This document shows positions 28,132 to 54,660 of a stretch of DNA of 64,000 nt, one piece after another. Position 1 is the first letter of the stretch. Every line of letters begins with the position of its first letter. The stretch lies in IMG/VR virus record IMGVR_UViG_3300032295_003840, positions 64,001-128,000 of that record. One strand, given 5' to 3'. Source of the DNA: a virus (taxonomy: Duplodnaviria; Caudoviricetes). The notes beneath the pieces are model-generated. The model was not told where the DNA came from. It did no database searches and was given only the letters and a program-made list of their open reading frames with translations. Made by a program: the position numbers and the translations under genes.

Positions 28132-31100
28132 TTAAGAAAATGATCGCGATGCGCCAACATAGTCGTTCTCAAGATATTCTATGTCAACGTAGTCTGTCAT
28201 GCGTAGAGATCCATTACTGACCATAGTATTTATATTTCCGAACGGGTCAAGATCGCCCTGCGGGTCGATCAGTGTGTCTTCCAGAGTTCGGAACAGCAGG
28301 TTGCTAATGGTAACAGCGTCTGAGGCCAGCAGATCTTCACGACGGGGCTGGGTCAGCAGATAGTTAAAACGACTTTCTGTGGAAAGACTAAGTTCAACAG
28401 GACGTTTATAGTTAGCGAATCTGCGCTGATCGTCTGAAATTACTATGTTTTGAGTGGTCAGTATTATAATGGGCGGAACAATGCCTGTTCCGCCGCCACC
28501 AGCTCCTCGGCCCAAGCTACCGCTATAGGCGCCGCCTCCACCACCGCCAGCACCGCCCCCAGAACCCGGAGAACCGGCGGTGCTGTCATTGTTAGGAACA
28601 CCGGTATTGCCAGTATCTGCATTACCACCGGCACCACCGTTGCCACTATAACCGCCAGCGCCACCGCCGCCACCGCCTGAATAGGTAGCTGTACGATTAC
28701 CACCGTTGCCGCCATTGCCACCGCCCTGACCAACGTAATTGCCGCCAGTTCCTCCTGCAATGCCGTTGGCGCCACCACCGCCTTTTACAGTTGTAATGCT
28801 GCTAAAATAACTGTCACCTCCAGAATTTTGCACTGAGAATAGTCCAGCTCTACCAACCTGAACTGTGTAGGTGTTGCCTAGCCCCACAGGCACAACAGCC
28901 CAGCCTAAACCTCCGCCACCGCCACCTCTGCCGCCATTGTCCTGCCCCGCTCCACCGCCACCGACACAGATAGCTACAACTATGCCATTTACAGTGGAAA
29001 CCCAAGATGTGACAAAATTTGTTGTGGCCGCAGCCGATGTGGTAAATGTTATAGAAGAGTCTGTACCATTGGCATTTTTCCAATACAGATGTACTACACC
29101 AACACCGGCATCGCCGAGGCCTCGGCCGAGGCCATCGGCACCGCCGCCACCGCCACCGTAGGTACCGCCAGCACTGCTGGTAGTACCATTGGCACCACTA
29201 GATCCACCAGCACCTGGATCTGGTAAAGCCAATGAGGTACCGCGTGCACCACCAGCACCCGATGCGCCACCTGCCGCAATATATGAAATTTCCACCAAAG
29301 GCGTTTTAAGAAAATCTAGACTGATGCGTTCCTGAGCATCGCCGCTGAATCTGATTGTGCCATAGCGCTGACCTATGCGTACAATGTCAGTAGTACTGGT
29401 GGCTGCTATGGTTACGCCGCTTACAGTGACATTGGCGCCTTGCTTGGCTCTCAGGCTGAAGTCAAAGCTAGTTCTTTCTAAATCATTGCCGCTAACACGA
29501 GCCCCAAAAGTGCCACCGCCAAAGCCTATGACCACAGCCACAGAAGAAATTCGTTTTCCTACAGTAAAGAAGCTGCGCTCTTCGTTGGCACTGCGCTGAT
29601 CGTAGTCAATGCCAGCTCGTAGTGTAATACTGCTAATGGGTTTGCTGATGTCAAATCTGATGCGTTCCTGAGCATCGCCACTGAAACGAATTACACCATA
29701 TCGTTGTCCTACTCGTACGTTGTCACTGGTGCTGCTAGCAGCAATGGTCACACCGCTTACAGTGACATTGGCGCCCTGTTTGGCCAACAGACTAAAGTCA
29801 AAGGCAGTACGTTCCAGGGGCGAGCCCGTGACACGAATACCCAGAGCGGGTACAATGCCTGCTGTTAAACTATCACGCTCCAGCAGAGTGGCGCGATAGG
29901 TCAGTCCGTCGAAGGTCTGCAGGAAGTCATCGGGTATGACGCTGTCGCCGATGCGCTTGGTGATGCTGAACACCAGACGTTCCAGCACATTGCCACGTGC
30001 CTGGTCTACCCCGCTGCCTGCTCTGATGTTGATGCTGCTGATGGCCTTGTTGACATTCAGGCTAATACGCTCCTGGGCATCGCCGCTGAATCTAATGATG
30101 CCAAACTGCTGACCAACGCGTAGGGTATCACTGGTGCTGCTGGCCGCCACGGTAACACCACTCACCGTGACATTGGCGCCCTGCTTGGCACGCAGTGTAA
30201 AGTTAAAACTGGTGCGTTCTAGATCGTCGCCACTGACACGCAGGCCCGGCGCCGCAGTACCAAAGCCAATCTGAACTGGATGTGTTGCAGGATTGCCTGC
30301 ATCGGCACGAGCCAGCATGGTGATGCTGAACGCCAGACGTTCCAGCTCATTGCCCCGTGCCTGGTCTATGTCAATGCCAGCCTTGACATCATCGGTTTTA
30401 TTCAGACCAACCAATTTAGCTGTGCGATCCAATATGATTGGCTGATCAGTCAGACTCTTGGTAATATCGAAGAAACGTGAGTCTGCAGTAGGCTGTATTT
30501 CTCGGAATAGTTTGGTGCCGTCATAGGTCAGACCGTCTGTGACTAGACTGTAGGAATCTTCTACACTGACAGTATCAGTCAAGGTTGCAGGAATCAGCAG
30601 CTTGGCTATGCGGTCCAGCGCCGGTGTTTCCAGTTCAAAATTACGCTTGTAGTCAGTGATGCTGGTCCAGAGATCTATGACACCAACAGCATCACGATCC
30701 TGTGCAGACTGTGACAACAGCACCGATGAATCTCTGACACCAGTATAGCCTATGACAGTGACCGTGGTTTCATAGGATGTAGAATATTCAGTGTTTAGAA
30801 CACGGAAATTGGTAAACGCAGCAAAGGGCGATGACCCTAGTTCATCATCGGCATTCTGACGGAATCGAACCAGTACACTCGCCTGACGTTGTGCCGGCGT
30901 TAGAACAATGGTCTTGGTTGTATAACTGGTACCACTGTATGGCGAACTACTGGTATCAAAAATCGTTGTTGTTGTGTCACCTATTGTAACACTAAATGAC
31001 GGTGAGCCGTCATGACCTGAAACTCGCCAATCAAAACTAATGGCTGTGGCATTGCGCAGATCCAGTAAATTGCTGTCAATGTAGCGTGATTCACCCTGAA

Positions 31101-34100
31101 AGATGCCTGGCGTACGGTAAGTAAAATAGTTTCCAAAGTCATCTGTACTAACCGTACCAAACCGATCACTGGTAGACAAAAACAAGGTGGATCCAGTCCA
31201 GTTATTGCCCGTGGTAACTGAACTCATGTAACCATCGGTCTGCAGAGTGACATAGTATGGTGTTACAATGGTCTGCACCGATGTACTGAACTGCGAAGGA
31301 ACCAGAGATTCTATGGTCTTGACCAGCAGACTTCCAGCCACACTGCGTCGTGCAGACTTGTTGATGTTGAATGCAGTACGTTCTAGATCGTCGCCACTGA
31401 CACGTTGCCCAAAGTTGTCGGCACCAAAGCCTACAACAATGTTCACAGAACTAATGGGTTTGATCAGAGTAAACCGTTCAGCATCCAACGGCGGTGCTGC
31501 CTCTTCAAATACACGATTCACTGAAATTAGACGACGCCAGGTGTCCACAGTACCCACTCGGTCGGTATCGGAACTGGTGTAGGTCAGCGCCACGGAACTG
31601 TCCAGCGGATGGGCTGTGCCTGTAAATACTGTGCTGGTTGTCACCGACGTTACAGTAACAACTGAAGTTACAGTCAACAATGAAACTTCGGCTACACCAT
31701 AGTTGTCGGTTGTGCCGCCGCTGGAGGCAAACTGCACCAGACGTATTCTGGTGGGGCTGAACAACAATGCTATGCTGGTCAGTGTCCAGCTGTCAGTGGT
31801 TAATAAATTAACCGTGGTTGCCGTAACCCAGGTGCCAGTCGACGATGACAGATACTGCAATACCAGTTGTTCGCCACTCAGATCAGGAGTTTCGCCACCG
31901 TTGGTGCCGTTACCAGCTATGTGCCTGAAGGCTATACTGGCAATCCCAGTACTGAAACTCTTGGTGGTCAGAGTACGTGTAGTAGCAGTGTCAAAGAAGT
32001 AGTGTGCATAGGTGGCAAACCCACCGGTAGCGCCCGAGCCCGTGCCGGCCCCGCGGTTGCGTATACCTATGCCCGAGGCCCAGATGTTACTGTTGGTGAA
32101 TACACCGGCGCTGGTGGTCAGCGTAGCAATGTTGGTGTCTGACGTTGTGACCTGACCTGAAGTAGTAGCAACACTGGTTGTAAACACCAGGCTCGTGGTG
32201 CCTGTTGAGCCGTCAGTGTCTTTGAAGTTGATGGTGTATTGCTGTCCAGCTCGGGCAGATTTGACCACATCATAGCGCGTGGCACTGGGCAGCTCGGCAC
32301 CGCGCGGAGTAGGTCGATTGCTGACACTGGTGGTAAAGCTGGTAAAACTTGTGTCCGCTATAAACAAGGTAGTGCGTAATACACTGCTTACAGTAGTGTT
32401 TAATTCAATGCCCACCAGCGTACTGGTGCCCGAAGTAGTAGTACCAGGCACCAAAGCACTCCGTATGGGTACAGCATTGTCAACAAACACAGAGCCTGTG
32501 GTAGAAGTGCTGGAACTCCAGGTATCAGCGTCGGTACTGGTCCAGACTATGGGAACACCGGCGCTGAGTTCACCAATAACAACAAATCTGGAAAGACTGG
32601 TGTCCCAGAATATACCCTGTGGAACTGCCGATCCCGTCAGAGTAGAACTAAACCAGGTATTCAGACTCGTTGTTCTCCAGACCGGTCCTCCACTGGCAGG
32701 ATAGACAAAAACAAATTGACCAGCACCATGTGTCAGGAAATTGTTGTCAAGGTATGAACTTGAAATTTCGCCGGGCCAGCCTGGGAAATCATTGCCCACA
32801 TTGGTAAAAAATGTGCCGATAGACACTGAGCTGTTAAGAAACCAGGTTTGACCGTCAAGATTGACCAGTACTGTATAGCCTGTGCCGCTTGGCAGGGCAC
32901 CGCTGGCTACGCCTGCGGGATAATCGCCAGTGAGCGCCAAACCGCCGGGACCAATGTGAGTAGTACCCGCATTCCAGGTGGTAAGCTGGTTGTTGGAGTA
33001 ATCATAGCGCCAGCTATATTGTGTGGAACCTTTACCTGAAGGCGGAATGCTTCGACGATGAAATGCTATGAATATACGACGATTGTTATCCCAGTGAGGT
33101 AAATAGTATTGTGTACCATTGACGTTTATTGCGGCCGCAGCACTGGCCCAGCTAGCACCCTGATCTGTACTCTTAAATGGACCTACGGTGGCGCTCATAA
33201 GAGCTATGGAGGTATTGCCCACCAGGCCGTCGCTGGCAAATTTGTAAACGCTATTACCAAAATTAATCGGTGACCAGGTTGTTCCCGTGTTGGTAGAACG
33301 CACACCCCAGCTGCTATCACTTCGACTTATAACAAACACGCTGGTGGTCAGTGCAGCCAGGTCGTACCAGTTCGTGGTGTTAGATACTATAGTAGGGCGC
33401 GTAGGTGCACTTAGTCTGGCGCTTATTTGCGCAGTAATACTGGATGCTACCGACGTTGAAACCCGTTCAAAGTTAGTACGCAGATCAATGAGATCGGCTT
33501 CGCGGCGGCGGGCAGCGTGTGCTCGACGTACCGAGTCGGTCTGCTCTACGGTTTCACGGAGTACTTTGGTCAGGCTATAAAATTCGGCATCGGGTATGAA
33601 ACCAATGGTAAGTGGAGTTCTGTTGCCAACATAGATTTCAAACAATGCATAGTTGTCACCGAATTCGGTGGGCGAGCCAGTCTGACGCCAGCGCCATATA
33701 GTAGACGAAGTCTTGGAAGCCACTGGCATGGTAATGCTGGTGGTACGCCAGTTGGCACCGTCGGGCCAGAGCGTGGCACCAGCCCAGATTGTGGCTGTGG
33801 TGGTGAAGCTGGTGCCCAGATCAGTACTGTATTCCAGTATGAGATTTTCGCCAGCCTCGGGTCGATCACCACCATTGGAAGTATTGCCAGCTATGAAACT
33901 AAAGATGACGTTGTCGCCCGTGGTTGTATCCAGCGGCACAGTGGCCAGCCAACGTGAACCCAGACCAGAAAACAGTACATAATTGCCGCCTGCGGGTTCG
34001 CCTGTGCCCAGACCATCGCTGGGTATGGCAGGAGCATAGAAGCCATCGAACTGACTAGCCGCAGTACCACTGCTGGTCACGGCAACATTGGATGTGACCG

Positions 34101-35997
34101 ACGTCGCCGAGAACAACTGGGAGCCGGCAAAGTTTGTTCCCAGCTCTCTGTTGTAGAGCAGATCCTGCGGACTATCAATATAGACTGTGACATAACCAAC
34201 ACGATCAGCAAAACTCAGTCCAGGTTGCAGAGAAATTAAATCTGCGGGTTGATCCAGAGCATCTTCTACTAAAAAGAAACGATTAAAGATCTTGGAAAAA
34301 ACATCGTCGATGATTTCATCGTCTTCAAATACGCGCTGTGCATTGAATAGTCTGGAAAATACATCGGTGCTCAGCGTGTCATCGGTTTTGTTCAAACCAT
34401 AGTTATAGGTAATGCCGTCGAACACACCGGCCAGATCTTCGGTAATGGCAGTGTCGGCCAGATTTTTAACAACGGCTAGTCTGGAGAAATCCTGCAGATC
34501 ATTGGCATCGGACAATACCTTGTTCAGTAACTTGCTGGTCTGATCCTCGGTGATTTGGTCTTCGAATTTTGTCAGGCCAATGCCTAGCTGACTTGCGTCC
34601 TGAATAGTCTGTGCATCCGCCAGATTGACCAGTTTAAATACCACGGCCAATATTACATCCAAGAACTCCACAGAATCCGCTGCAGCAAATTTATTCAACC
34701 GCAATGCGGTACGATCTTCAGACAGCTCGGCGTCTTCGAACACACGGCTAGTTACTGTGGTGCGAATCAGTTCATCCTGCAATGTCTGTACATCGCGTAT
34801 ACCCTGACCAATGAATAGTTGTTTTTGATCCGACGCAATCACAACGTCGACGTTGTTTGGTAAGCCGAAGCCCAAACTTAGCCGTGCAATGTCCAGCAGA
34901 CTAACAAAGTCTGGATCCAGAGTTCTGAAATAATTTGTAGCCGATCTAAAATTATCTGTGGCAAAAACTTCAAAGGAACGTGACAATCCATAGCTATAGG
35001 TAATGCCGTCAAATACACCGGCCAGATCCTGAGGCACAACAAAGTCCGCCAGATTCTTAACAATGTCTTGGATTAGACGATCAGCAAAGTCTGTCTGATC
35101 AGCCAGCCCCTTGCCAGGTATTCGGCTGGTCTGATCCTGGATTATTACGGCATCGGCCTTGGTTATGGATACTGCTTTGAACAGTTGATCCAGAGTAACA
35201 ACATCGTCAAATTTACCAAGTAAGCTACTTAATGTGGTGCGGTCTGCAAAGGCAATGCTGTCTTGTTTTAACAGCTCGGCGCGCAGTGCAACATTGTCAA
35301 TTTCTGCCACGGCATCGGCCAGCACCTTGCTCAGACTAAACACAGGATCTTCTTGTGCCGAAGTCTCATCAAACAGTGCCTTGCCTATGTCAAAACTTTC
35401 CAGATCAGTGATCTGTACTGCATGCTGGAACAGACGACCAAATGTCACCAGAATTCTGGACACGTCGGTGGCCAGCAATGAATCAAATATATTGAGGCCT
35501 GGTTCCAGGCTAGGTAGATCTCGGGCACTGACCAGGTCTGTGGGCAGAGGTTTGTCTAGTCGCAACGCAGTACGACTCTGCATCAGTGCTGCGTCTTCAA
35601 ATACTCGGAAGGCACGGATCAGTAGACGCAGACGATCGTCGGTGGCCTGCACAAATTCATTGAAGCCCTTGCCAGGCACCAGGAAGGCATCGTCATCGGT
35701 GACCGATACCGCATCATCAAAAAATCTGCCGCGAATAAACAGCAGCAATGGACTGTCTACTGGCAACAGGTATTCGGCAAACACCTGCACACCGCTGACT
35801 GTATCGGAATAGACAATACGATCAATGACACGACGCACCAGCTCGGCACGTTTTACCAGTACGTTGTTGTCACGTAGCTCAGGTGTTATCTGAGTCTTGT
35901 TGATGACTGTCTTGGTGAATAGTTGTGAGCCACTCTGAAGCTCGGCCAGAGTGACCAGACTTGAACCGCTGCGTGTTATCCGATTGATTTTTGCCAT
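28132..35997 (-). CDS. Giant repetitive fibre/adhesin-like virion protein (18-aa repeat backbone; reelin-like, Asp-box and Gly-rich inserts)
   Basis: Uninterrupted 2621-aa ORF with K/R-x-L/F-x-D-x5-D periodicity, Asp-box SxDxGxxW motifs and a Gly-rich C-terminal domain; lies in the structural block. Confidence 0.8.
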   Translation of the reverse strand: MAKINRITRSGSSLVTLAELQSGSQLFTKTVINKTQITPELRDNNVLVKRAELVRRVIDRIVYSDTVSGVQVFAEYLLPVDSPLLLFIRGRFFDDAVSVTDDDAFLVPGKGFNEFVQATDDRLRLLIRAFRVFEDAALMQSRTALRLDKPLPTDLVSARDLPSLEPGLNIFDSLLATDVSRILVTFGRLFQHAVQITDLESFDIGKALFDETSAQEDPVFSLSKVLADAVAEIDNVALRAELLKQDSIAFADRTTLSSLLGKFDDVVTLDQLFKAVSITKADAVIIQDQTSRIPGKGLADQTDFADRLIQDIVKNLADFVVPQDLAGVFDGITYSYGLSRSFEVFATDNFRSATNYFRTLDPDFVSLLDIARLSLGFGLPNNVDVVIASDQKQLFIGQGIRDVQTLQDELIRTTVTSRVFEDAELSEDRTALRLNKFAAADSVEFLDVILAVVFKLVNLADAQTIQDASQLGIGLTKFEDQITEDQTSKLLNKVLSDANDLQDFSRLAVVKNLADTAITEDLAGVFDGITYNYGLNKTDDTLSTDVFSRLFNAQRVFEDDEIIDDVFSKIFNRFFLVEDALDQPADLISLQPGLSFADRVGYVTVYIDSPQDLLYNRELGTNFAGSQLFSATSVTSNVAVTSSGTAASQFDGFYAPAIPSDGLGTGEPAGGNYVLFSGLGSRWLATVPLDTTTGDNVIFSFIAGNTSNGGDRPEAGENLILEYSTDLGTSFTTTATIWAGATLWPDGANWRTTSITMPVASKTSSTIWRWRQTGSPTEFGDNYALFEIYVGNRTPLTIGFIPDAEFYSLTKVLRETVEQTDSVRRAHAARRREADLIDLRTNFERVSTSVASSITAQISARLSAPTRPTIVSNTTNWYDLAALTTSVFVISRSDSSWGVRSTNTGTTWSPINFGNSVYKFASDGLVGNTSIALMSATVGPFKSTDQGASWASAAAAINVNGTQYYLPHWDNNRRIFIAFHRRSIPPSGKGSTQYSWRYDYSNNQLTTWNAGTTHIGPGGLALTGDYPAGVASGALPSGTGYTVLVNLDGQTWFLNSSVSIGTFFTNVGNDFPGWPGEISSSYLDNNFLTHGAGQFVFVYPASGGPVWRTTSLNTWFSSTLTGSAVPQGIFWDTSLSRFVVIGELSAGVPIVWTSTDADTWSSSTSTTGSVFVDNAVPIRSALVPGTTTSGTSTLVGIELNTTVSSVLRTTLFIADTSFTSFTTSVSNRPTPRGAELPSATRYDVVKSARAGQQYTINFKDTDGSTGTTSLVFTTSVATTSGQVTTSDTNIATLTTSAGVFTNSNIWASGIGIRNRGAGTGSGATGGFATYAHYFFDTATTRTLTTKSFSTGIASIAFRHIAGNGTNGGETPDLSGEQLVLQYLSSSTGTWVTATTVNLLTTDSWTLTSIALLFSPTRIRLVQFASSGGTTDNYGVAEVSLLTVTSVVTVTSVTTSTVFTGTAHPLDSSVALTYTSSDTDRVGTVDTWRRLISVNRVFEEAAPPLDAERFTLIKPISSVNIVVGFGADNFGQRVSGDDLERTAFNINKSARRSVAGSLLVKTIESLVPSQFSTSVQTIVTPYYVTLQTDGYMSSVTTGNNWTGSTLFLSTSDRFGTVSTDDFGNYFTYRTPGIFQGESRYIDSNLLDLRNATAISFDWRVSGHDGSPSFSVTIGDTTTTIFDTSSSPYSGTSYTTKTIVLTPAQRQASVLVRFRQNADDELGSSPFAAFTNFRVLNTEYSTSYETTVTVIGYTGVRDSSVLLSQSAQDRDAVGVIDLWTSITDYKRNFELETPALDRIAKLLIPATLTDTVSVEDSYSLVTDGLTYDGTKLFREIQPTADSRFFDITKSLTDQPIILDRTAKLVGLNKTDDVKAGIDIDQARGNELERLAFSITMLARADAGNPATHPVQIGFGTAAPGLRVSGDDLERTSFNFTLRAKQGANVTVSGVTVAASSTSDTLRVGQQFGIIRFSGDAQERISLNVNKAISSINIRAGSGVDQARGNVLERLVFSITKRIGDSVIPDDFLQTFDGLTYRATLLERDSLTAGIVPALGIRVTGSPLERTAFDFSLLAKQGANVTVSGVTIAASSTSDNVRVGQRYGVIRFSGDAQERIRFDISKPISSITLRAGIDYDQRSANEERSFFTVGKRISSVAVVIGFGGGTFGARVSGNDLERTSFDFSLRAKQGANVTVSGVTIAATSTTDIVRIGQRYGTIRFSGDAQERISLDFLKTPLVEISYIAAGGASGAGGARGTSLALPDPGAGGSSGANGTTSSAGGTYGGGGGGADGLGRGLGDAGVGVVHLYWKNANGTDSSITFTTSAAATTNFVTSWVSTVNGIVVAICVGGGGAGQDNGGRGGGGGGLGWAVVPVGLGNTYTVQVGRAGLFSVQNSGGDSYFSSITTVKGGGGANGIAGGTGGNYVGQGGGNGGNGGNRTATYSGGGGGGAGGYSGNGGAGGNADTGNTGVPNNDSTAGSPGSGGGAGGGGGGAYSGSLGRGAGGGGTGIVPPIIILTTQNIVISDDQRRFANYKRPVELSLSTESRFNYLLTQPRREDLLASDAVTISNLLFRTLEDTLIDPQGDLDPFGNINTMVSNGSLRMTDYVDIEYLENDYVGASRSFS
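28227..28234 (-). promoter_or_regulatory. Late promoter inside the 3' end of the 2621-aa gene
   Basis: TATAAATA 110 bp before the ATG at 28117. Confidence 0.6.
29310..30400 (-). repeat. Degenerate intragenic tandem repeats
   Basis: AKQGANVTVSGVT.AA.ST.D..R.GQ..G.IRFSGDAQERI occurs three times; DNA blocks gtgacattggcgcc and gcatcgcc(g/a)ctgaa recur near 29330-29440, 29660-29780 and 30070-30190. Confidence 0.9.
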
Positions 35998-36001
35998 TGC
36001 A

Positions 36002-36340
36002 TCACCGTGTGACGCGTGGCGTCACGGTTACTATACCCTCAACAGCCCGAGTTTTTACACCCGTGGAGCTGTTGGTGATCAGTACATCGTAGACATATCT
36101 CCCGTATTTTAACGCAGCACTGGTGGTGCTTGACATGGTTAAAACCAGTTCACCATTGCTTGGAATAGGCATGCTTACAGCAAAAACCGCACTGGCAGTG
36201 GTGCTATCATAACTACGCCGAACCTGAGCAGTGGCACCATAGTTGGTCAGGTTCAGTGGTTCGGTGTTGGTGCTGTATAATTTAATTACAGCCTCGAAGT
36301 CTGCACCCTGGTCTATGGTAAGATTTGTAGTTATGGCCAT
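36002..36340 (-). CDS. Small Ig-like/BppU-N-like structural protein
   Basis: NLTIDQGADF, LNLTNY...AQVRR, GRYVYDV and R.VEG.V.V.P.VTR motifs. Confidence 0.8.
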   Translation of the reverse strand: MAITTNLTIDQGADFEAVIKLYSTNTEPLNLTNYGATAQVRRSYDSTTASAVFAVSMPIPSNGELVLTMSSTTSAALKYGRYVYDVLITNSSTGVKTRAVEGIVTVTPRVTR

Positions 36341-36343
36341 GGT

Positions 36344-36571
36344 TTACTTTTCCAGCAATCTGATTAGCAAATTCTTTATATCGGCGATGTCCGATTCCAT
36401 GTTATTTATTCTGGTTTCCATGGTGTCGACCTTTTCACGCTGCTGCTGTCGATGCTGTTTAATTTTAACATAGCGTTCATAGGCCTCGGCATCGACATCG
36501 ATGACTGCGCCGCCGCGAGTGCGGCGCAGTTCCTCGTAACCAGCAATTCGTTGTGTTTCATTATTATGCAT
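36344..36571 (-). CDS. Conserved small coiled-coil protein
   Basis: L.R..GAVI.....Y..Y followed by a heptad C-terminus; typical position after VrlC-like genes; start uncertain (36571 or 36577). Confidence 0.7.
   Translation of the reverse strand: MHNNETQRIAGYEELRRTRGGAVIDVDAEAYERYVKIKQHRQQQREKVDTMETRINNMESDIADIKNLLIRLLEK
36403..36410 (-). promoter_or_regulatory. Late promoter for the 112-aa and 2621-aa genes
   Basis: AATAAATA 63 bp before the ATG at 36340. Confidence 0.6.
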
Positions 36572-39500
36572 GGGCAATGATCCTCAAACTACGGAATGAA
36601 GGATAACGCGCTCCATTGGTGGTCTTCAGCACAATCTTGACCTGGAACGAAGTAAAGGGCGGCAAATCGCGAGGATTACCTCCGACATCAAAGTCAGTGA
36701 TATCGATCTGTATCTCACTGTAGACACCACGTTGTTCTTCTTTGTTGAAGTTTGGCAACGGAGTGAATTCAACCCAGGGCTTGTTCTTAAATTCTTCACC
36801 GGGCGAACCAATCTTATAATATACATCGATGTCAGCTGCACTGGGTATGTTGGCATCCAGCAGCATCTTGATGCTGGTTGCTGGGTTCTCCAGATTGATT
36901 TTCTTGGTAATATATTTGCTGATCGCCGTTGCACCACCAAAGGAACGCTCATCGACAAATTCACGCACAGTGTAGATGTCAATGCTGTCACCTGCGCCAA
37001 TGCTGGTCAAGTTGGCATCCACAAAGATTGTGGATCCATCTTCACTGACGTCTTTGACACGCACACCAGTGCTGGTGCTGTTGTTGCCTGCTATGCTGCT
37101 GCCCGACACTATAATAAAGGTTCCGGGTGCAACATTGTTAAACAACTCTTGTGTTGTAGACACAATGGCTTCATTGACACCATCAAAGGATATGGTTGTG
37201 TCATTGAGAACAATTTCTTCATAGTCCACAAACTGTGTTGAACCAGTGAACGGTGTACCAATGGCTGGCAATATGGTTGGCATGCGATTGGCACGTGTGG
37301 GCGAATCAATGCGCCACTGCCAGGTACGAACACTGAGGTTGCTGAGATCAATCAATGGACTGATCGCATCGTTGTTGCTGGTCAGAGTAAATGTACCAAC
37401 AAAACTTTCTTTCCAGGTTGTGGCACCTGTACCACCGCCAATGGTGGCACCGGCAGCACGAGCATATTCATTGGGCTGGCTCAACACAATCTTGGGGTCG
37501 TTCATGAAGTTAGTAGTACTGAAGTCCAACTTCTGACTGGTGCGTGTATAAACCTGACCTGAATTTCCAGGCAGGCTGCTGTCATAGGTAAAGCCTCCGG
37601 TCTGATCTGCTTCGAAGGTCAGACTTGTTTCCTGGAAATTCAGCACCTTGCTGGCCGGTGTGGCGACATGATATAGCTGGTTATAGGTGGCTATTACATC
37701 GCTGCCGCCTCCCATAACTGCACTCACACCAGTGGTGGCCTGCGGTCCCAGATTGGCTGGAGTAGTTACCTGCACAACATAGTAATCATGGCCAATGGTG
37801 TCATTGACACTGACTGTCAGCGGAGTATCGGTTTCCAGAACAATGTCCTGAGTGCTGACATCGGTACCAAAAATTTCTCCTACAGGTATGCCATTCATTG
37901 TAATGGAACTGTTGGCTGAATACTGCTGATACCAGTACTTGCTGGCCAGTCGCACTTTATCGCCTGGAGCATGACCATGATTAAGCTGACGAATGCGGAT
38001 CTTGTTGCTGCCATGCACAAACATCATGGGATCATCGGACAGAGGTTCGCCTGGCAATACCTTGTTCACCACCTTAACAACACCAGTGTTGTTGAAGTTG
38101 AATACTGCGCGGTTCATGACAAACTTCATGTCAGTGAGCTGGTCCTCGGTCCACAGAGTTCCATCCTGTGATTTAAAGAAGCTGCCCAGCGTTGCCTGAC
38201 GGTTATAAGTTCTGGTCGGTGATGTGCTGAGATCGGCCTGACCCAGTGTGGCTGTCCATACCCGATACTTTGACGTATCTGATCTCAAGATGAACGCATA
38301 GTTCTTGTTGGGCAACAGGTAAATAGGATTCCTAAAGGTAAACTTGGTTGGTGTTCTGCCTGTGGTGGCATCAACAAGAATCTCACTGGGGAATTTAATT
38401 ATTTCTGATCCAGGTATGAGCTCACCAGAACCGTCGGGACGTCCAGTTGCATCGCAGGGACGCATCTCCATGGTTACTGGTGCAGTTTCATTGGTGGGTT
38501 TTGAATGGAAGAACACATCAATGTCAGTAATGAATGCACCGTTGGTGAACTGATCTGGTAACTTGAAGCTTTGTGCAATGGGGTCATAGGGACGCACACT
38601 AAAGCTACGTTGTGTGGTATAGGTTCTCTGGATGGTTATCTCAATACCACGTGTAGTATAGGTAGCATCAGCACGACTATTCCATTCATCGGGATCGTTT
38701 TCTGGACTGTCTGTAATGATGATCTTCTTCTCACCAGACAAGAACTTCACCAGATCGCTGTTGGGCAAATCAAAGGTAGCGCAGATAACACCGTCGGCGT
38801 CACTGTACAGGTTGCCCTGATCGTCGCTGGTCTGCATTTGCGACAAGAACGATGTGCTGGCCAGATTCTTGGGATCGTTCTGGTCCACTGCCACGTAGAA
38901 TACGCCAGGATAGGCATAGCTACGATCATTGTTGACCAAGGGTCTGCCCAACATGAATCCGCGACTCATGGTGCCATGGCAGTTTACACAGTACAATGTA
39001 GTGTTCTTCTGATATACAGCTACACCGCTGCCCTGATAGGCACCACTGGCATAATGATAAATTGATCTACCAGTTTCAAAGGCCTTGCGATAGGCCGCGC
39101 CGCGAGCAGACTGTGGCAGACGCAGCTCTTCCTGCTTGGGCACAATGGTTCTACGAACATACTGATACAGCTGTTGAGCGACCAGACTACTGCCCTTGCC
39201 TTTGCCGTTTCTTTGTCTGACGTAGATAATCTTCCAGGGCTCATTGACAAAGCGACTCTCATACAGTGTACGCCACTTGGCCCACTGGTTACGGTCTGCC
39301 AAGGGCACTGTGAAGTTCAGATTGGGTACAGAGTCAAAGGTGAATCGCATGGCACCCTGTACGTAGTCTCCCACAAACTCATCGTCAAAATACACATAGT
39401 GTTTGGTGTTGGGCAGCAAACCACGCGCCACCATCAATATGGTGTTGGCGCGGCAGAATGGATTGACTCGGGAAGAAACTTCCTGATTCAATACCAATGG

Positions 39501-42500
39501 GATACTTCGTACTTCTACCTGTATAGGACGTCGTTCTCCAGTGGCTCGTAGTCTGGCTACTGCAGCATTGACATCGGCCTGTGTAAAGTTCTGACTGTCT
39601 GCAGTCGCCACAGTTTTGTCAATGGTTGTTGTTGATTCCCAGATGTCACTGTCTGGTGACAGAGTCAGTTTGCCCAGGAAGTTGGCGTCCAGGAACGGCG
39701 CCACACTGATCGATGTAGTGGCCATGGTCTGCTGCAGAATCACGCTGGTAGTATAATTCAGCGTAATGGCGTCGCCTGTGATTCTATAATTGTCCAGGGC
39801 ACGCGCAGCAATCACTGGATCCTGTTCCAAGCCGCTGACCACGGCACCACTGAAGTTAATCTTTTCTACAAGATCAAAATCGCGCAGAGCCACAGCAGGA
39901 TTCAGTGTCTTGGAAACAGTTTCATTGCTGAAATTTGAATCGCTTTCAAGTTCACAACCGCTGTTGTCTACAAAATTATCAACAAAGAAACCAGTCTTGT
40001 AGCGTTCCAGAGTAGGATCGGCATTGTCACGAATCTGCAGGTTCTTGGTATTGGTTTCCAGCAGACTCAGCGACCCAATTTCTTCCAGAGCAGTAATACG
40101 TTTGTCCATGCCACCGATGTCGGCCATGGTGTAGCGACGATATTCTTTTCGGCTCTGTGTCACGAAAGGTGCTTCACTGCCACGTGTATAGGGTTCCAGC
40201 GTCAGCGAATACATGTGCAGACTGGTGCTGTCCTGAGCAATTTCTGGATCACGTGGCGATGTAGACGGTGCCGATGGAATGTTGTAGAAACGTGCTCGGC
40301 GATCCAGCATGATGACTTCTTTGCGACCCAGATAGTAGCTTAGGTCAGTCTGGAAGTTGCTGTCAAACCGCGGAGGATTGTTGCCTATCAGCAGATTGCT
40401 ATCGCCGTCAATTCTGGCACGGAAGTCCAGGAAGTCATTGAGGCTAAGTCCGCGATAGTCTGGTGTCTGCTCATAGGGAACCTGCAGACGGTTATAACTT
40501 TGTGCTGAGAAGAAGTCTCCCAGACCATGTTCAAAATAGTCGTACCAGACCTTGATGCTGCCAATGGGCACGGCCTGGCCAGGAAGAATTCTTAATTTTC
40601 CTAGATCATACATGTTGGGACGCTGACCGTCATCCAGGGTATACTTGGCAGTTACATCCAGCGCCGAGGCCTGCACTGCTTCGGTCCAGGTGGTTACAAA
40701 GCTAGTAGACATCAGTATTTTGTTCACACGATAGATGTCTGAATTGCTCAGAGTCAGGACACTCAGAGTAGCTTCTGAACTACCCAGATAGGTGTCTGTG
40801 GCATCGAAGGTCAGAGTCTTGGATTTAACGCCGCCCAGCACCGATGCACTGACCGCAGTACGCAGCACAGGATAGATTACACGAACTCGATCGCTCTGGA
40901 AGGGCTGATCCACAATCAGCTGATATTCAACGTCGCTGTTGCCAGGTACAACATCGATTACAGTAGCTGGTCGCTGCAGATTACCAACAGCGTCTTCGGC
41001 TACTATGAAGGAACTGGGCTGCAGGCTGGCCAGCTGTTCTGTGTTCAGTGTACCGCTGGCACCTGCCAGGGTAATGGTTACGCCGGTCTGGCTAATAACA
41101 CCATCGACCTGCTGAGTTTGATAGACATAGTAACTGTTGTCTGTCATGTTGTTCAGAGCATCGGCAACCTTGAACAGCAGACTATTGTTCTCGGTTTCAT
41201 AGAAACCATTGGTAATTTTTAGCAAGGGGAACTGTGCAGTGGTGCCAGTAATGCTTTCATCCATGCTGATACCGAACGCTACACTGTTGCTGCTAATGTG
41301 TGTAATGAAGATGCGTTTGTCGTTGATTTTAACCAGATCGTTTTCACGCAGTTCCTGGGTAAATTTAGCAGTGCTGTCACCAACAATGCGCAGTGCGGTG
41401 TGTACTGCGGCTGTGCCAGTACTGCCATTGTAGTCCAGCAACTGATACTGGCCTGACAGACGACGTGCATTGATGCCCAGAGCAAAACTGTCAAACACCT
41501 CGGTGGCAAAGCTGGCAGCCACACCAGTATACCAGGTACCATAGGGCGATGAAATGGTAACACTGGTGCTGGCATTGATCAATGACAGGCTGGTATAGGC
41601 AGTCAGGCTAGTAGTGGCAAACTCCACATTCATGCGATTTTCATTGATGGCTCGACGCTGTCTGGTGGCATAGCTTTGGTTGGCTGTACCCAGATAGATG
41701 ACCTGGTTGTCCAGAGTCTCGGTCTGGAATCTGGTGGACGTGCCAGTGCCAATGCCAAACACCGTACCCTGATTTACACGCACATAGGCGCTGGTCGATG
41801 CATCGGCCGGTGTGCCGCCTGCCTGTGGTACAGGATTGGCGCCAGTGCCACGCAACAGAACCACTATACCCGAACCTGCACTAATTACTGGTATATTACC
41901 GCCTACCAATGTAAGACCCTGACCATCAACACCCCAGGCTACCACCATGTAGGAACTTAGATTGCCTGCTTCGGCATAGCCACCATTGGCTGATTGATAT
42001 CTAAATGGTTGAATACGCAGGTTTTGGAACTGAGAAGCGTCACGGTAATTATATCCGCCCTCGGGTGGATGTGGATCGGTTTCTCTGAAATACGGAGCAC
42101 CACCAAAAGTACCTGCCAGGTTGGTGTTGCCAGCTGCGCTCCAGGGAATACCTGTGAGTGCATCGCAGAAGGCAACAACGCTGCCAATGCTGAGCTGCGA
42201 GCTAAAACCACCCCAGCCAGCGGCCCCAGTTGGAGCAGTAACATTGAAATAAACCGAGTTATTGCTGACAGTACCTGCGCCAATGGTAAGACCACTCAGA
42301 GCTCGGTTGGTCAGCAAACCTGTTGTGTTCAGTGAGCGCAGTACACCTGTGGTGCTGCCCACATAGGTACTCCAACCTGTGGAAACATAGCGATTGAACA
42401 CTGGGCCACCAATTACAGTCAGTGCAGTATTGCTGAGGATGCGTGAAACTGTCCAGCTACTTGTTACAGCGTTGCTGCTGCTGGCAATGGTAATGGTTTC

Positions 42501-44489
42501 GCCAACCAGTAACTCTCTGGTGAACGCTGTGTTTACACCGCGTACTGTGAGATTAGAGCTGGCATAGGTACGCGAAGTTGCGCCTGTGCTGGCCTGATAA
42601 TATGCACCAATGCCTGAATAAAAATTTCCATAGCCAACATAGGCCAGACCAGTTGTGCTGCTGTTGCCAAAACTTTGCCATAGTGCGTTGCGATTGCCAC
42701 CCTGACCAAAGTACAGAGTTGTACCAGGATTGCCAAAGCCATTGAGCAGATTTTCGGGGTCAAGACTTGGACTTAGATTGGGAATGAACTGTACAGCACC
42801 GCTGAGCTGAACATAGCTGCTGCCACCGCTGTCAGGACCAACATAGCGCATACCGCCAGTATGTTCGTAGCTTTTGGTTAGCACCGAACCTGCAGGATCA
42901 GGCACCAGAACCAGGTTGACGTCACGCTCGAAACTCTTGTTGCTGTTCATTACAATGTCGCTGAAACCAATCTTCAATGCACCCTGCGTGCCACCATCGA
43001 TGTAGATGATGCGTCCAGTACCCACCTTGTTGCCGTAGCCAATGGGTATAGTAGTGTCGCCAATGATGCGATCATAGAATTCTACAATGGGACCGGCGCT
43101 GACATTGGGCAGACCCAGAGTCTGTTGTGGGTCAAAGTAGGCATAGTTGCCAATGTTGGTGGCAATGGCCCGATTATTTTCAGCGCGTGTGTCGCGTGAT
43201 TTGTCGATACGCAACGCTGTGCTGTTGAGTTTATCAATCTTGAAACCCTGAATATAGGCACGTCCTGCACCAAAGGTCAGCACCAGCTGACTGCTGTTGC
43301 CCAGCGTGGTTACACTGGTGCCGACGTCGTAGTAGCCCTGGTTGCCCGCGGGGCGAGCAATGTAACGCCAGCGCACCGAACCATCGCTTAAACTCTGAGT
43401 TTCATTGTAGGTGGCAAACTCTGTGGGTTCGGTACCGTTGCCCGAGATGCCGGACTGAATGCAGACAAAATAACGTGTGGTGGATGCGTTAACGCGAACA
43501 TAATCACCTACCTGATACTCAGTGTTGGCCAGCCAGGTGCCGCGATTGTTGCTGCGGCTTTCACGTATGTCAAAGTCAAAGTTACGAACTACATAGTTAC
43601 CGCTTTCATCGAAGGTTCGTTCGGCCAGAGCTTCTTCCAGAATATTGTATTGCGATCCATTGATGAGCTGCTGCACTTCGCCGCTTTCGATGCGAATAAG
43701 TTCAAAGAAGTTTTCAGCGGCTTCTTCTAATCCAAGCTTGATAAAATCTGTGCTAATTTTATAGCGATCTGCACCCGGTGCAGCAACGTTGCTGGTACCT
43801 GCAGCATTATCCAGCAGACTAATATCTTCCTGATAGGTGGCAATTGATTCGGTATACTGAATACCAATTCGGCAATTGATGTTGGCTATGGCACTGACGT
43901 ATTTTTCTACAACCACCACAGTCTTGGGCACTGTGACAAAATAGCCGCCCAGATAGTACACACCGGCCTGCTGTGCTGCTATGGCGCTGCGTCCAGTGAC
44001 ATTATCGCCGCCCTGCACTGTCATGGTATAGTTGTTGTTGCCCTTGACATACAGTGTAGCATTGGCAGCAAATGTTTTTTCGTTGTTGCCAAAGTCGTCC
44101 TGATTGCCGCGTGTGTAGAGAATAACCAGTGTAATGGGATCGCCCGTGGCCGTGGCAGCGACGGCCTTGAGCACCGTGGCTTCGACTCCGCTGTCGCCAG
44201 TACTGTTGGTAATGACCTGATCTTCCAACCAGGTCAGATCCTCACCCAGCAGGTTGGTGCTGGCCAGCTTGACAAAACTTACTTTGTCATTGTAGTTGAC
44301 CTGACCAGGGATGACCATGCTGCCATCTTTGAATACGTGATTACCAAATTTGGTGACCTGATTCTGCAGTATGGTCTGCAGCTGGTTAAGCTCACGAGTC
44401 TGAACAGCTACACCGGGCTTGAACAGCACCTTGTAGTACTGTTTGTCCTCGTCAAAGTCGTCAAAATACGGTGCCTGATTGAAATTCAT
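36564..44489 (-). CDS. VrlC-like/DUF4815 large virion structural protein
   Basis: N..PYFDDFD..K.YYKVLF.PG.AVQ.REL.QLQ.ILQ.Q N-terminus; RTFDESG.Y, RYTM.DIG, K.GF.VDNF, DPIAQSF, GS.FKSQ and LR.IA C-terminus. Confidence 0.9.
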   Translation of the reverse strand: MNFNQAPYFDDFDEDKQYYKVLFKPGVAVQTRELNQLQTILQNQVTKFGNHVFKDGSMVIPGQVNYNDKVSFVKLASTNLLGEDLTWLEDQVITNSTGDSGVEATVLKAVAATATGDPITLVILYTRGNQDDFGNNEKTFAANATLYVKGNNNYTMTVQGGDNVTGRSAIAAQQAGVYYLGGYFVTVPKTVVVVEKYVSAIANINCRIGIQYTESIATYQEDISLLDNAAGTSNVAAPGADRYKISTDFIKLGLEEAAENFFELIRIESGEVQQLINGSQYNILEEALAERTFDESGNYVVRNFDFDIRESRSNNRGTWLANTEYQVGDYVRVNASTTRYFVCIQSGISGNGTEPTEFATYNETQSLSDGSVRWRYIARPAGNQGYYDVGTSVTTLGNSSQLVLTFGAGRAYIQGFKIDKLNSTALRIDKSRDTRAENNRAIATNIGNYAYFDPQQTLGLPNVSAGPIVEFYDRIIGDTTIPIGYGNKVGTGRIIYIDGGTQGALKIGFSDIVMNSNKSFERDVNLVLVPDPAGSVLTKSYEHTGGMRYVGPDSGGSSYVQLSGAVQFIPNLSPSLDPENLLNGFGNPGTTLYFGQGGNRNALWQSFGNSSTTGLAYVGYGNFYSGIGAYYQASTGATSRTYASSNLTVRGVNTAFTRELLVGETITIASSSNAVTSSWTVSRILSNTALTVIGGPVFNRYVSTGWSTYVGSTTGVLRSLNTTGLLTNRALSGLTIGAGTVSNNSVYFNVTAPTGAAGWGGFSSQLSIGSVVAFCDALTGIPWSAAGNTNLAGTFGGAPYFRETDPHPPEGGYNYRDASQFQNLRIQPFRYQSANGGYAEAGNLSSYMVVAWGVDGQGLTLVGGNIPVISAGSGIVVLLRGTGANPVPQAGGTPADASTSAYVRVNQGTVFGIGTGTSTRFQTETLDNQVIYLGTANQSYATRQRRAINENRMNVEFATTSLTAYTSLSLINASTSVTISSPYGTWYTGVAASFATEVFDSFALGINARRLSGQYQLLDYNGSTGTAAVHTALRIVGDSTAKFTQELRENDLVKINDKRIFITHISSNSVAFGISMDESITGTTAQFPLLKITNGFYETENNSLLFKVADALNNMTDNSYYVYQTQQVDGVISQTGVTITLAGASGTLNTEQLASLQPSSFIVAEDAVGNLQRPATVIDVVPGNSDVEYQLIVDQPFQSDRVRVIYPVLRTAVSASVLGGVKSKTLTFDATDTYLGSSEATLSVLTLSNSDIYRVNKILMSTSFVTTWTEAVQASALDVTAKYTLDDGQRPNMYDLGKLRILPGQAVPIGSIKVWYDYFEHGLGDFFSAQSYNRLQVPYEQTPDYRGLSLNDFLDFRARIDGDSNLLIGNNPPRFDSNFQTDLSYYLGRKEVIMLDRRARFYNIPSAPSTSPRDPEIAQDSTSLHMYSLTLEPYTRGSEAPFVTQSRKEYRRYTMADIGGMDKRITALEEIGSLSLLETNTKNLQIRDNADPTLERYKTGFFVDNFVDNSGCELESDSNFSNETVSKTLNPAVALRDFDLVEKINFSGAVVSGLEQDPVIAARALDNYRITGDAITLNYTTSVILQQTMATTSISVAPFLDANFLGKLTLSPDSDIWESTTTIDKTVATADSQNFTQADVNAAVARLRATGERRPIQVEVRSIPLVLNQEVSSRVNPFCRANTILMVARGLLPNTKHYVYFDDEFVGDYVQGAMRFTFDSVPNLNFTVPLADRNQWAKWRTLYESRFVNEPWKIIYVRQRNGKGKGSSLVAQQLYQYVRRTIVPKQEELRLPQSARGAAYRKAFETGRSIYHYASGAYQGSGVAVYQKNTTLYCVNCHGTMSRGFMLGRPLVNNDRSYAYPGVFYVAVDQNDPKNLASTSFLSQMQTSDDQGNLYSDADGVICATFDLPNSDLVKFLSGEKKIIITDSPENDPDEWNSRADATYTTRGIEITIQRTYTTQRSFSVRPYDPIAQSFKLPDQFTNGAFITDIDVFFHSKPTNETAPVTMEMRPCDATGRPDGSGELIPGSEIIKFPSEILVDATTGRTPTKFTFRNPIYLLPNKNYAFILRSDTSKYRVWTATLGQADLSTSPTRTYNRQATLGSFFKSQDGTLWTEDQLTDMKFVMNRAVFNFNNTGVVKVVNKVLPGEPLSDDPMMFVHGSNKIRIRQLNHGHAPGDKVRLASKYWYQQYSANSSITMNGIPVGEIFGTDVSTQDIVLETDTPLTVSVNDTIGHDYYVVQVTTPANLGPQATTGVSAVMGGGSDVIATYNQLYHVATPASKVLNFQETSLTFEADQTGGFTYDSSLPGNSGQVYTRTSQKLDFSTTNFMNDPKIVLSQPNEYARAAGATIGGGTGATTWKESFVGTFTLTSNNDAISPLIDLSNLSVRTWQWRIDSPTRANRMPTILPAIGTPFTGSTQFVDYEEIVLNDTTISFDGVNEAIVSTTQELFNNVAPGTFIIVSGSSIAGNNSTSTGVRVKDVSEDGSTIFVDANLTSIGAGDSIDIYTVREFVDERSFGGATAISKYITKKINLENPATSIKMLLDANIPSAADIDVYYKIGSPGEEFKNKPWVEFTPLPNFNKEEQRGVYSEIQIDITDFDVGGNPRDLPPFTSFQVKIVLKTTNGARYPSFRSLRIIAHA

Positions 44490-54456: not shown

Positions 54457-54660
54457 TTATTGGCCGCGCTCTCGGCGCATGAGTTCTTGAAATCGTGGAT
54501 ACCACTTTTCAATCTCTTCATGCTGTGCTTCGGTGTGCGGCGGATCGGGTATGTTGGGATTAAATTTAATCACATGATCAATTTTTTGTGGGATGTCTTC
54601 CCAACGGTTAACGGTCATTATTTTACCATTAACCATTACTGTGAATTCTGATTTTTTCAT
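54457..54660 (-). CDS. Conserved small hypothetical protein between gp5 and PAAR
   Basis: DIP..IDHVIKF.P.IP.PPHT..QH.EI..W pattern; ATG at 54660 overlaps the gp5 stop (ATGA). Confidence 0.7.
   Translation of the reverse strand: MKKSEFTVMVNGKIMTVNRWEDIPQKIDHVIKFNPNIPDPPHTEAQHEEIEKWYPRFQELMRRERGQ

What the first reader, a model, noticed from the sequence alone, without database searches (positions are those of the whole stretch)
28132..35997. Giant modular display protein: repeat backbone with a reusable insertion socket
Seen: an ~18-aa K/R-x-L/F-x-D-x5-D backbone runs through the protein and resumes after every interruption. At an equivalent point after (K/R/L)-x-A-(R/K) the chain carries either a short insert (AKQG-ANVTVSGVT.AA.ST.D three times; ARADAGNPATHP) or a whole domain between S/T/V-rich strands (KSARAG...DSSV.L.....D.D.VG..D.W and KSARRS...DSSV.L.....D.D.VG..D.W). 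Passengers are three reelin-like modules, an Asp-box propeller-like region (about 32510-33320) and a Gly-rich domain (about 28480-29280). Inference: a filament that displays interchangeable binding modules along its length instead of a single tip adhesin. I do not know this architecture from characterised phage fibres.
Basis: partly seen in the sequence, partly recalled or inferred. Interest (0 to 1): 0.78.

Follow-up and report, generated by a model that had tools for sequence, protein, structure and literature searches.

The report
Giant phage fibre with plug-in sockets
A 2,621-residue tail-region protein of an uncultured T4-like aquatic phage has a repeat scaffold with small hairpin units, and each hairpin tip is either bare or carries a whole ~200-residue lectin-like domain; close relatives fill different hairpins with different domains, which shows how such a phage could re-tool its host-binding surface.

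Summary
The ORF at 28132-35997 (- strand, 2,621 aa) is real. It lies between gp8 and gp13 in a T4-like structural gene block of a 167-kb IMG/VR virus.

- An 18-aa repeat is significant in the N-terminal third. Its core recurs after most interruptions.
- Two reelin-like modules sit between a KSAR(A/R)(G/S) entry motif and a DSSV...VG..D.W return motif.

Orthologue comparison is the main result. In 16 family proteins this entry/return pair occurs 35 times. The tip is 2-8 aa in 28 cases and 190-206 aa in 7, with nothing in between.
- In two 72-74%-identical orthologues, socket 1 is empty.
- In the same two orthologues, socket 2 holds the module type that this protein carries in socket 1.

So the "reusable socket" reading holds for the reelin-like modules.

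It does not hold elsewhere.
- The propeller and the Gly-rich domain are in-line modules, not socket passengers.
- The AKQG and ARAD "short inserts" could not be shown to be equivalent to sockets.

Both ends of the protein are conserved and the middle varies. Both AlphaFold jobs failed (pLDDT about 34), so fibre shape, oligomer state, virion location and glycan binding remain inference.

Verdict: a new variant of modular phage adhesion proteins.

The parts
28132..35997 (-). Whole ORF, 2,621 aa (P0001), including the stop codon
35713..35997 (-). Conserved N-terminal region, aa 1-95. Identity is 76-96% in close orthologues and 34-45% in distant ones. Presumed virion-attachment end.
34237..35793 (-). 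Array of about 23 A-type units of 17-20 aa (h-x-D-x5-D/E pattern), aa 69-587
33598..34197 (-). Module R1, reelin-subrepeat-B-like beta-sandwich, aa 601-800. A module occupies this position in all 16 family proteins examined.
   Evidence: Pfam PF21471 E=9e-16; PDB reelin E=1e-12 with the family profile
32293..33357 (-). Asp-box/BNR-like propeller-like module, aa 881-1235, joined in line and not in a socket
   Evidence: all weak but concordant
32206..32274 (-). Socket 1 entry element (KSARAG type), aa 1242-1264
31603..32205 (-). Socket 1 passenger: reelin-like module R2 with its own S/T/V-rich strands, aa 1265-1465. Absent at this site in P0002 and P0003.
31528..31602 (-). Socket 1 return element (DSSV...VG..D.W), aa 1466-1490
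31303..31371 (-). Socket 2 entry element (KSARRS type), aa 1543-1565
30733..31302 (-). Socket 2 passenger: divergent reelin-like module M3, aa 1566-1755. P0002 and P0003 carry an R2-type module here instead.
30658..30732 (-). Socket 2 return element, aa 1756-1780
29302..30396 (-). Array of B-type units (29-41 aa) and three 49-aa AKQG units, aa 1868-2232. Each unit ends in an A-like core (R-h-S-G-D-x-x-E-R).
28447..29301 (-). Glycine-rich domain (35% Gly), aa 2233-2517. Absent from P0002, P0004, P0005 and P0006. Placed mid-protein in P0003.
28135..28446 (-). Conserved C-terminal region, aa 2518-2621. The last ~45 aa are nearly invariant in P0001-P0009, and the same motif was detected in most of the wider family.
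36002..36340 (-). Upstream 112-aa ORF matching phrog_3304, annotated as tail fibre assembly. Possible fibre chaperone.
   Evidence: E=6e-28

Best explanation
SHOWN
- The gene encodes a giant modular structural protein of a T4-like aquatic myovirus whose host is unknown. It lies in the variable block between baseplate gp8 and neck gp13.
- Its N-terminal ~95 aa and C-terminal ~45 aa are conserved.
- Between them, a scaffold of short repeats (18-aa A units, and 30-49-aa B units that end in an A-like core) carries compact modules. These are three reelin-subrepeat-B-like sandwiches, a BNR-like propeller-like region and a glycine-rich domain.
- One scaffold unit behaves as a socket. It has an entry part (F-x-h-x-K-x-A-K/R-x-G, then a strand ending KT-I-D) and a return part (Q-S-S-V strand, then D-x-D-x-V-G-x-h-D-x-F/W).
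- The turn between the two parts is either 2-8 aa or a complete ~200-aa reelin-like module.
- Orthologues differ in which sockets are filled and with which module clade.

INFERRED
- The entry and return parts form a beta-hairpin, and the module projects sideways from its tip.
- Modules are gained, lost and moved by recombination, helped by their shared S/T/V-rich edge strands and by repeated DNA within the gene.
- The protein is a baseplate-attached fibre.
- The modules are glycan binders, so the fibre gives lateral, multivalent and easily re-tooled adsorption to the host surface.
For: CONTEXT
- The gene order is gp5, gp6, gp7, gp8, a DUF4815 giant, a fibre-assembly-like small ORF, the target, a virion structural protein, gp13-15, gp17, gp18, gp20.
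- Synteny is conserved in IMG/VR loci L002-L008.

SOCKET
- Exact junctions in P0001 against P0002 and P0003.
- 35 entry/return pairs in 16 proteins. Tips are 2-8 aa in 28 cases and 190-206 aa in 7.
- Six other proteins scanned in the same run gave no HMM hits. They include two unrelated giants that carry A-type repeats.
- P0004 has a ~195-aa block at socket 1 that P0005 lacks. The downstream flank is 89% identical and the upstream flank 72%.

MODULE TREE
- The P0001 socket-1 module groups with the P0002/P0003 socket-2 modules (support 100/99).
- The P0001 socket-2 module groups with those of P0004 and P0005 (98/96).

ENDS AND MIDDLE
- Ends are conserved and the middle varies. Orthologue lengths run from 1,684 to 3,363 aa.

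MODULE TYPES
- All recognisable modules are lectin-type or fibre-tip-type: PF21471, and in relatives CBM_4_9, Laminin_G_3 and Gly_rich_2.

DNA REPEATS
- Repeats inside the gene include a 29-nt pair at 97% identity.
Against: - There is no structural support. Two AlphaFold2 jobs gave mean pLDDT 34.8 and 33.5, so the hairpin geometry, the extended shape and any trimer state are unproven.
- No similarity was found to any characterised tail fibre. Pfam, PHROGs, PDB and 50,697 phage records matched only the reelin-like domain.
- Virion location rests on gene position alone.
- Only 7 filled sockets were seen, all in one sub-clade (P0001-P0005), and all carry reelin-like modules.
- The direction of change (insertion or deletion) is not resolved.
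- The host is unknown. No psbA was found above cut-off, and the portal is only 55% identical to Melnitz and Synechococcus phages.
Confidence: 0.7

Rival explanations
1. The sockets are scars rather than plug-in sites. The ancestor carried modules everywhere. 'Empty' hairpins are what remains after modules were deleted by recombination between their S/T/V-rich edges. On this view there is loss only, with no reusable insertion.
For: - The modules carry similar low-complexity edge strands that could drive deletion.
- The direction of change was not resolved.
- All filled sockets lie in one sub-clade.
Against: - The same module clade sits in socket 1 in P0001 and in socket 2 in P0002 and P0003. 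Socket 2 holds two different clades. Both require relocation or replacement, not just loss.
- Empty sockets are well conserved in distant lineages that have no filled one: 28 copies with tips uniformly 2-8 aa.
Confidence: 0.15
2. It is an ordinary tip-adhesin fibre. The C-proximal glycine-rich domain is the real receptor binder, as in S16 gp38 or Pam3 gp24. The other modules are accessory or structural spacers.
For: - Glycine-rich domains are the receptor-recognising tips of Pam3 gp24 and S16 gp38 (PMC9608196).
- Here the domain lies near the C-terminus.
Against: - The domain is absent from P0002, P0004, P0005 and P0006, and lies mid-protein in P0003.
- It is followed by a 104-aa C-terminal region that is the most conserved part of the family.
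- It has no sequence match to any PDB chain.
Confidence: 0.1
3. The apparent module shuffling is an artefact of metagenome assembly across repeated, low-complexity DNA.
For: - The gene contains internal DNA repeats.
- One IMG/VR orthologue is split over two frames, and another has stops in all frames.
Against: - P0002 (ENA) and P0003 (NCBI/JGI) come from different sources and are only 85% identical over their first ~1,650 aa, yet show the same socket states.
- All the ORFs stay open.
- The junctions fall at the same few residues of the hairpin tip each time.
Confidence: 0.05

Closest known systems
'Evolved' Dit/Tal and neck-passage proteins of lactococcal and streptococcal siphophages, which carry inserted carbohydrate-binding modules (PMC6669499; PMC9437275)
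   Same: Virion tail proteins in which whole sugar-binding modules are inserted into a structural framework. The modules are present in some phages and absent in close relatives, which gives several binding modules per adhesion device.
   Different: - There is no sequence relation.
- Those are small baseplate proteins of siphophages of Gram-positive bacteria.
- Here the host is a 2,600-aa repeat scaffold in a T4-like myovirus, with a repeated dedicated hairpin unit, several sockets per chain, and relocation of one module clade between sockets.
Reelin subrepeat B (PF21471; PDB 2ddu, 3a7q), and reelin-like domains in gp7 and virion structural proteins of Synechococcus phages S-RIM8 and S-RIM50
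   Same: Module R1 passes the Pfam cut-off and the PDB profile search. The only tblastn matches in cultured phages are these domains, at 38-45% identity.
   Different: In those phages the domain sits in other proteins. No cultured phage has the N-terminal region, the repeats, the sockets or the C-terminal region.
Glycine-rich receptor-binding tips of tail fibre adhesins (Pam3 gp24, S16 gp38; PMC9608196), and Pfam Gly_rich_2 (PF21722)
   Same: A domain with many GGGxGG-type motifs interspersed with beta strands, inside a phage tail-region protein.
   Different: - There is no PDB sequence match.
- The Pfam score is below cut-off for this copy (18.4 against 24.3).
- The domain is not terminal, and it is optional and mobile among orthologues.
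T4 fibres encoded in the same genomic slot (gp10, gp11, gp12, wac)
   Same: The gene position between gp8 and gp13. The conserved N-terminus is consistent with baseplate attachment.
   Different: - There is no detectable homology.
- It is five or more times longer than gp12 (my own recollection of T4 gp12 as about 527 aa).
- The C-terminus is conserved rather than variable.
Giant repeat adhesins of bacteria, such as RTX ice-binding adhesin MpIBP (from my own knowledge, not tested here)
   Same: A long repeat extender with several different ligand-binding modules.
   Different: Those modules are clustered near one end and joined in line. They are bacterial, not viral, and there is no hairpin-tip insertion.

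Membership tests
Reelin_subrepeat-B (PF21471) | Score above the Pfam gathering cut-off (27 bits) | tested here: met
   R1 (aa 666-791) scores 58.2 bits on the segment alone and 80.7 on the whole protein. The profile search against PDB finds reelin at E=1.3e-12.
Reelin_subrepeat-B (PF21471), modules R2 and M3 | Score above the Pfam gathering cut-off (27 bits) | tested here: not met
   R2 scores 22.5 bits and M3 13.5 bits. Both link to R1-type modules through the family's own HMM and the module tree. P0004's M3-type module scores E=6.5e-23. P0001's own M3 scores only 9.2 bits.
BNR/Asp-box beta-propeller (PF02012, PF15902, GH74-like) | Repeated S-x-D-x-G-x-T-W boxes at blade spacing, and a family HMM match above cut-off | tested here: inconclusive
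   There are 2 strict and about 4 degenerate boxes between aa 889 and 1160. Sortilin-Vps10 scores 16.4 bits against a cut-off of 33. GH74 gives E=0.27. ESM look-alikes of BNR type score 0.90-0.94 with low recognition. The AF2 model is unusable.
Gly_rich_2 (PF21722) | Score above the gathering cut-off (24.3 bits) | tested here: inconclusive
   This copy scores 18.4 bits. P0009's copy scores 59.5 bits and is about 54% identical to this one over ~199 aa, uncorrected for composition.
PGII-lattice fibre-tip adhesins (S16 gp38, Pam3 gp24) | Sequence or structural similarity to the solved glycine-rich tip domains | tested here: not met
   phmmer of aa 2235-2520 against PDB gave no match at E up to 10. 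The fold could not be tested.
T4-type tail fibres (gp12, gp34-37) or other named tail fibre families | A match to a tail fibre family in Pfam or PHROGs | tested here: not met
   The only hits are PF21471 and phrog_4474 (function unknown).
Trimeric fibre | Extended, parallel, homo-trimeric shaft | not testable with these tools
   Only monomer AF2 was available, and both jobs failed.
Virion structural protein | Detected in purified particles | not testable with these tools
   The only evidence is gene position within the baseplate-to-neck block.

The most novel reading that the evidence does not exclude
The hairpin unit is a dedicated and evolvable plug-in site. Reelin-like cassettes, each with its own S/T/V-rich adaptor strands, move between sockets of one fibre and between phages without disturbing the scaffold. 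The fibre is held at both conserved ends and binds the host surface sideways through a changeable set of lectin modules. This would be a natural domain-insertion display scaffold, and a host-range mechanism distinct from tip swapping.
Probability: 0.35. Interest if true: 0.8.

Novelty: new variant of a known kind. Interest (0 to 1): 0.66.

Why it matters
Host range in tailed phages is usually explained by exchange of the distal tip of a fibre. Here the ends are fixed, and variation happens at defined internal hairpins that accept or lose whole domains.

If the inference holds, three things follow.
- It gives a second, cassette-like route to new adsorption specificities in abundant aquatic T4-like phages.
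- It explains why the gp8-gp13 block holds such long and variable genes.
- It offers a natural scaffold whose sockets tolerate ~200-aa inserts, which is of interest for engineering phage or protein display.

The family is rare. A search with the N-terminal 600 aa found 102 representative proteins among 1.84 billion at E of 0.001 or better, and only about 16 of them share the N-terminus. It is absent from cultured phage records, so nothing about it has been tested.

Tried and rejected
STRUCTURE
- Two AlphaFold2 jobs (aa 41-1240 and 1422-2621, each with a 16-row alignment) gave mean pLDDT 34.8 and 33.5. I drew no structural conclusion and ran no fold search on them.

I could not fetch the DNA of P0002-P0005, and so could not map breakpoints or check those assemblies.
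I redid it from coordinates.

SEARCHES THAT FOUND NOTHING
- Megablast of the gene and of 17 kb of flank against phage records found nothing.
- tblastn of the whole protein found only reelin-like domains.
- tblastn of the C-terminal 67 aa found nothing credible.
- The first IMG/VR scan, with a single sequence, found nothing. The scan with an alignment found 7 loci.
- A PDB search of the Gly-rich domain gave no hits.
- PHROGs on four other giant proteins that carry A-type repeats gave no named family.
- Papers on cyanophage plus reelin: none. DUF4815 papers were uninformative.

TESTS THAT CAME OUT NEGATIVE OR INCONCLUSIVE
- BLASTP against nine other ORFs in the window, including the adjacent ones, found no paralogy.
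- Pairwise alignment of an empty socket against the AKQG and ARAD units was not significant (z from -1.4 to 1.5).
- Profile-profile comparison of AKQG units against sockets was marginal. I therefore dropped the claim that AKQG units are 'short inserts in the same socket'.
- A plain HMM of the 18-aa unit run through hmmsearch was too weak outside the N-terminal third, so I replaced it with an iterated matrix. That matrix may drift towards the B-unit cores.
Full report
WHAT IS THERE

The finding's coordinates are exactly one ORF: 28132-35997 on the minus strand, 2,621 aa, with no internal stop. The window is part of a 166.9-kb IMG/VR virus record estimated 92% complete.

On the same strand lie, in order:
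- gp5 (54657-57452), gp6 and a 1,979-aa gp7-like protein;
- gp8 (44506-45939);
- a 2,641-aa DUF4815/phrog_358 protein (36564-44489);
- a 112-aa ORF matching a 'tail fibre assembly' PHROG (36002-36340);
- the target;
- ORFs of 183 aa and 404 aa;
- a 978-aa 'virion structural protein';
- then gp13, gp14, gp15, gp17, gp18 and gp20.

So the gene occupies the slot where T4 has gp9-gp12 and wac.

The phage is not close to any cultured one. Megablast finds nothing. The portal is 55% identical to Methylophilales phage Melnitz and to Synechococcus myoviruses. No psbA scores above cut-off. I therefore call the host unknown.

CHECKING THE OBSERVATION

Similarity autocorrelation peaks at lag 18 in aa 81-350 (z=5.3) and at 19-20 in aa 351-620 (z=3.9).

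An iterated position matrix tiles 23 units from aa 69 to 587. It then finds units after module R1 (809), after socket 1 (1493), after socket 2 (1783, 1826, 1845), at 2012, and as the C-terminal core of every longer unit between 1868 and 2232. There are two caveats:
- The C-terminal half is built of 30-49-aa units that only end in an A-like core.
- No unit lies between the propeller and socket 1, or after the Gly-rich domain.

The six x-A-(R/K) sites are all present, and each follows an F/Y-x-h-x unit end. The KSARAG...DSSV and KSARRS...DSSV brackets are at aa 1242-1490 and 1543-1780.

Evidence for each module:
- R1 is a clear Reelin_subrepeat-B domain (E=9e-16). The family profile hits reelin structures at 1e-12.
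- R2 is just below the Pfam cut-off.
- M3 is weak by itself. Its clade-mate in P0004 matches the family's own module HMM at 6.5e-23.
- The propeller call rests on several weak, concordant signals.
- The Gly-rich domain is 35% glycine. It matches phrog_4474 and resembles a relative's Gly_rich_2 domain that passes Pfam.

THE DECISIVE COMPARISON

A search of 5.8 billion proteins gave nine relatives. A full HMMER scan of 1.84 billion representatives with the first 600 aa gave 102 hits, of which about 16 share the N-terminus.

IMG/VR gave seven loci. Wherever the contig reaches that far, they show the same flanking genes (DUF4815 giant upstream, 978-aa protein downstream).

Orthologue lengths range from 1,684 to 3,363 aa. 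Even so, the first ~95 aa and the last ~45 aa are conserved throughout. The C-terminal core is 53-84% identical even in the most distant members.

P0002 and P0003 are 72-74% identical to the query over aa 1-1289. At socket 1 their entry and return elements are nearly letter-for-letter the same as here, but they are separated by six residues instead of 201. At socket 2 the flanks again match, with 71-92% identity on the return side. There they carry a module 69-73% identical to the query's socket-1 module, where the query has M3.

P0004 and P0005 differ by one ~195-aa block at socket 1. The sequence downstream of it is 89% identical and the sequence upstream 72%.

I built HMMs of the entry and return elements from coordinates and scanned 22 proteins. 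They mark 35 entry/return pairs in 16 family members. The tip lengths are 2-8 aa in 28 pairs and 190-206 aa in 7, with none in between. The HMMs gave no hits in the six other proteins scanned, two of which are unrelated giants carrying A-type repeats.

A maximum-likelihood tree of 30 modules supports movement of modules:
- The query's socket-1 module groups with the socket-2 modules of P0002 and P0003 (100/99).
- The query's M3 groups with the socket-2 modules of P0004 and P0005 (98/96, on a long branch).
- The first module site after the A array holds R1-type modules in some lineages and R2-type modules in others.

So the same socket takes different passengers, and the same passenger clade sits in different sockets.

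- All seven filled sockets carry reelin-like modules.
- The propeller, the Gly-rich domain and several further reelin-like modules in relatives are joined in line, through other junctions. The CBM_4_9 and Laminin_G_3 domains of relatives also lie outside any detected entry/return pair.
- The Gly-rich domain is mobile as well. It lies before the C-terminal region here and mid-protein in P0003, and it is absent in P0002, P0004, P0005 and P0006. It is not in a socket.
- The 49-aa AKQG units share only the entry motif with sockets. Profile-profile alignment covers ~20 columns with a score of 18.5-20.9, against at most 17.1 for 30 column shuffles. Pairwise tests are not significant, and no AKQG unit is filled in any of the 16 proteins.
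- The ARAD unit reads as an ordinary B unit with a short N-terminal extension, and it is conserved in P0003.

MECHANISM

Shown:
- a repeat scaffold with conserved ends;
- a recurrent two-part unit whose turn is either minimal or a whole module;
- gain, loss and relocation of modules among close relatives;
- repeated DNA within the gene that could serve recombination.

Inferred:
- the unit is a beta-hairpin with the module at its tip;
- the protein is an extended fibre attached to the baseplate;
- the modules bind host glycans, giving lateral multivalent adsorption that can be re-tooled by cassette exchange.

The inference rests on gene position, on the lectin-type nature of every recognisable module in the family, and on the adjacent assembly-factor-like ORF.

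Both AlphaFold2 jobs failed (mean pLDDT 34.8 and 33.5), so none of the geometry is supported by a model. ESM-Atlas look-alikes of the scaffold are all unnamed viral proteins.

COMPARISON WITH WHAT IS KNOWN

- The nearest concept is the 'evolved' Dit/Tal and neck-passage proteins of lactococcal and streptococcal phages. In those, carbohydrate-binding modules are inserted into tail proteins and vary between relatives (PMC6669499, PMC9437275). That relation is an analogy, not homology.
- Glycine-rich receptor-binding tips are known from Pam3 gp24 and S16 gp38 (PMC9608196), but no sequence link was found.
- Reelin-like domains occur in other structural proteins of Synechococcus phages.
- I found no paper describing this family, a repeated hairpin socket, or fibres with both ends conserved and internal cassette exchange. 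These searches cover open-access text only.

VERDICT

It is narrower than claimed, because only reelin-like cassettes use the socket. It is also structurally and functionally unproven.

I class it as a new variant of a known kind (modular phage adhesion proteins) and score interest at 0.66.

Noticed in passing
window 36564-44489 (-): The neighbouring 2,641-aa protein (DUF4815, phrog_358) is conserved upstream of the target in all IMG/VR loci. It shares no detectable similarity with the target. Its function is unknown.
   Followed up: partly
window 36002-36340 (-): A 112-aa ORF between the two giants matches phrog_3304, 'L-shaped tail fiber protein assembly' (E=6e-28). It may be a chaperone for one of them.
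   Followed up: no
window 30212-30240 and 31376-31404: A 29-nt direct repeat at 97% identity encodes the R-V-S-G-D-D-L-E-R core of two B units that lie 1.2 kb apart on either side of socket 2. It is a candidate substrate for intragenic recombination.
   Followed up: no
L005:9974-15041: The IMG/VR orthologue is split into two overlapping ORFs (801 and 925 aa) in different frames. This is either a frameshift or an assembly error. L007 shows stops in all three forward frames over its matched part.
   Followed up: partly
P0010 (2,456 aa): This unrelated giant protein consists almost entirely of tandem copies of the glycine-rich domain. About a dozen stretches match aa 2233-2520 of the target.
   Followed up: partly
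P0013, P0014 (4,442 and 3,988 aa): Other giant metagenomic proteins carry 21-23 stretches of the A-type 18-aa repeat. They have different N-termini, no sockets and no PHROG match. The scaffold repeat is therefore wider than this family.
   Followed up: partly
G000:C1:55249-55605: The only Photo_RC (psbA-type) signal in the 167-kb genome is 15.3 bits, below the cut-off. The phage may not be a typical marine cyanophage.
   Followed up: no
window aa 329, 526 and 2029 of the ORF (F-D-G-I/L-T-Y): A special A-type unit ending in F-D-G-(I/L)-T-Y recurs three times here, with a 79%-identical 85-nt DNA repeat at 34393 and 34984. It recurs at matching places in nearly all family members. Its role is unknown.
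   Followed up: no
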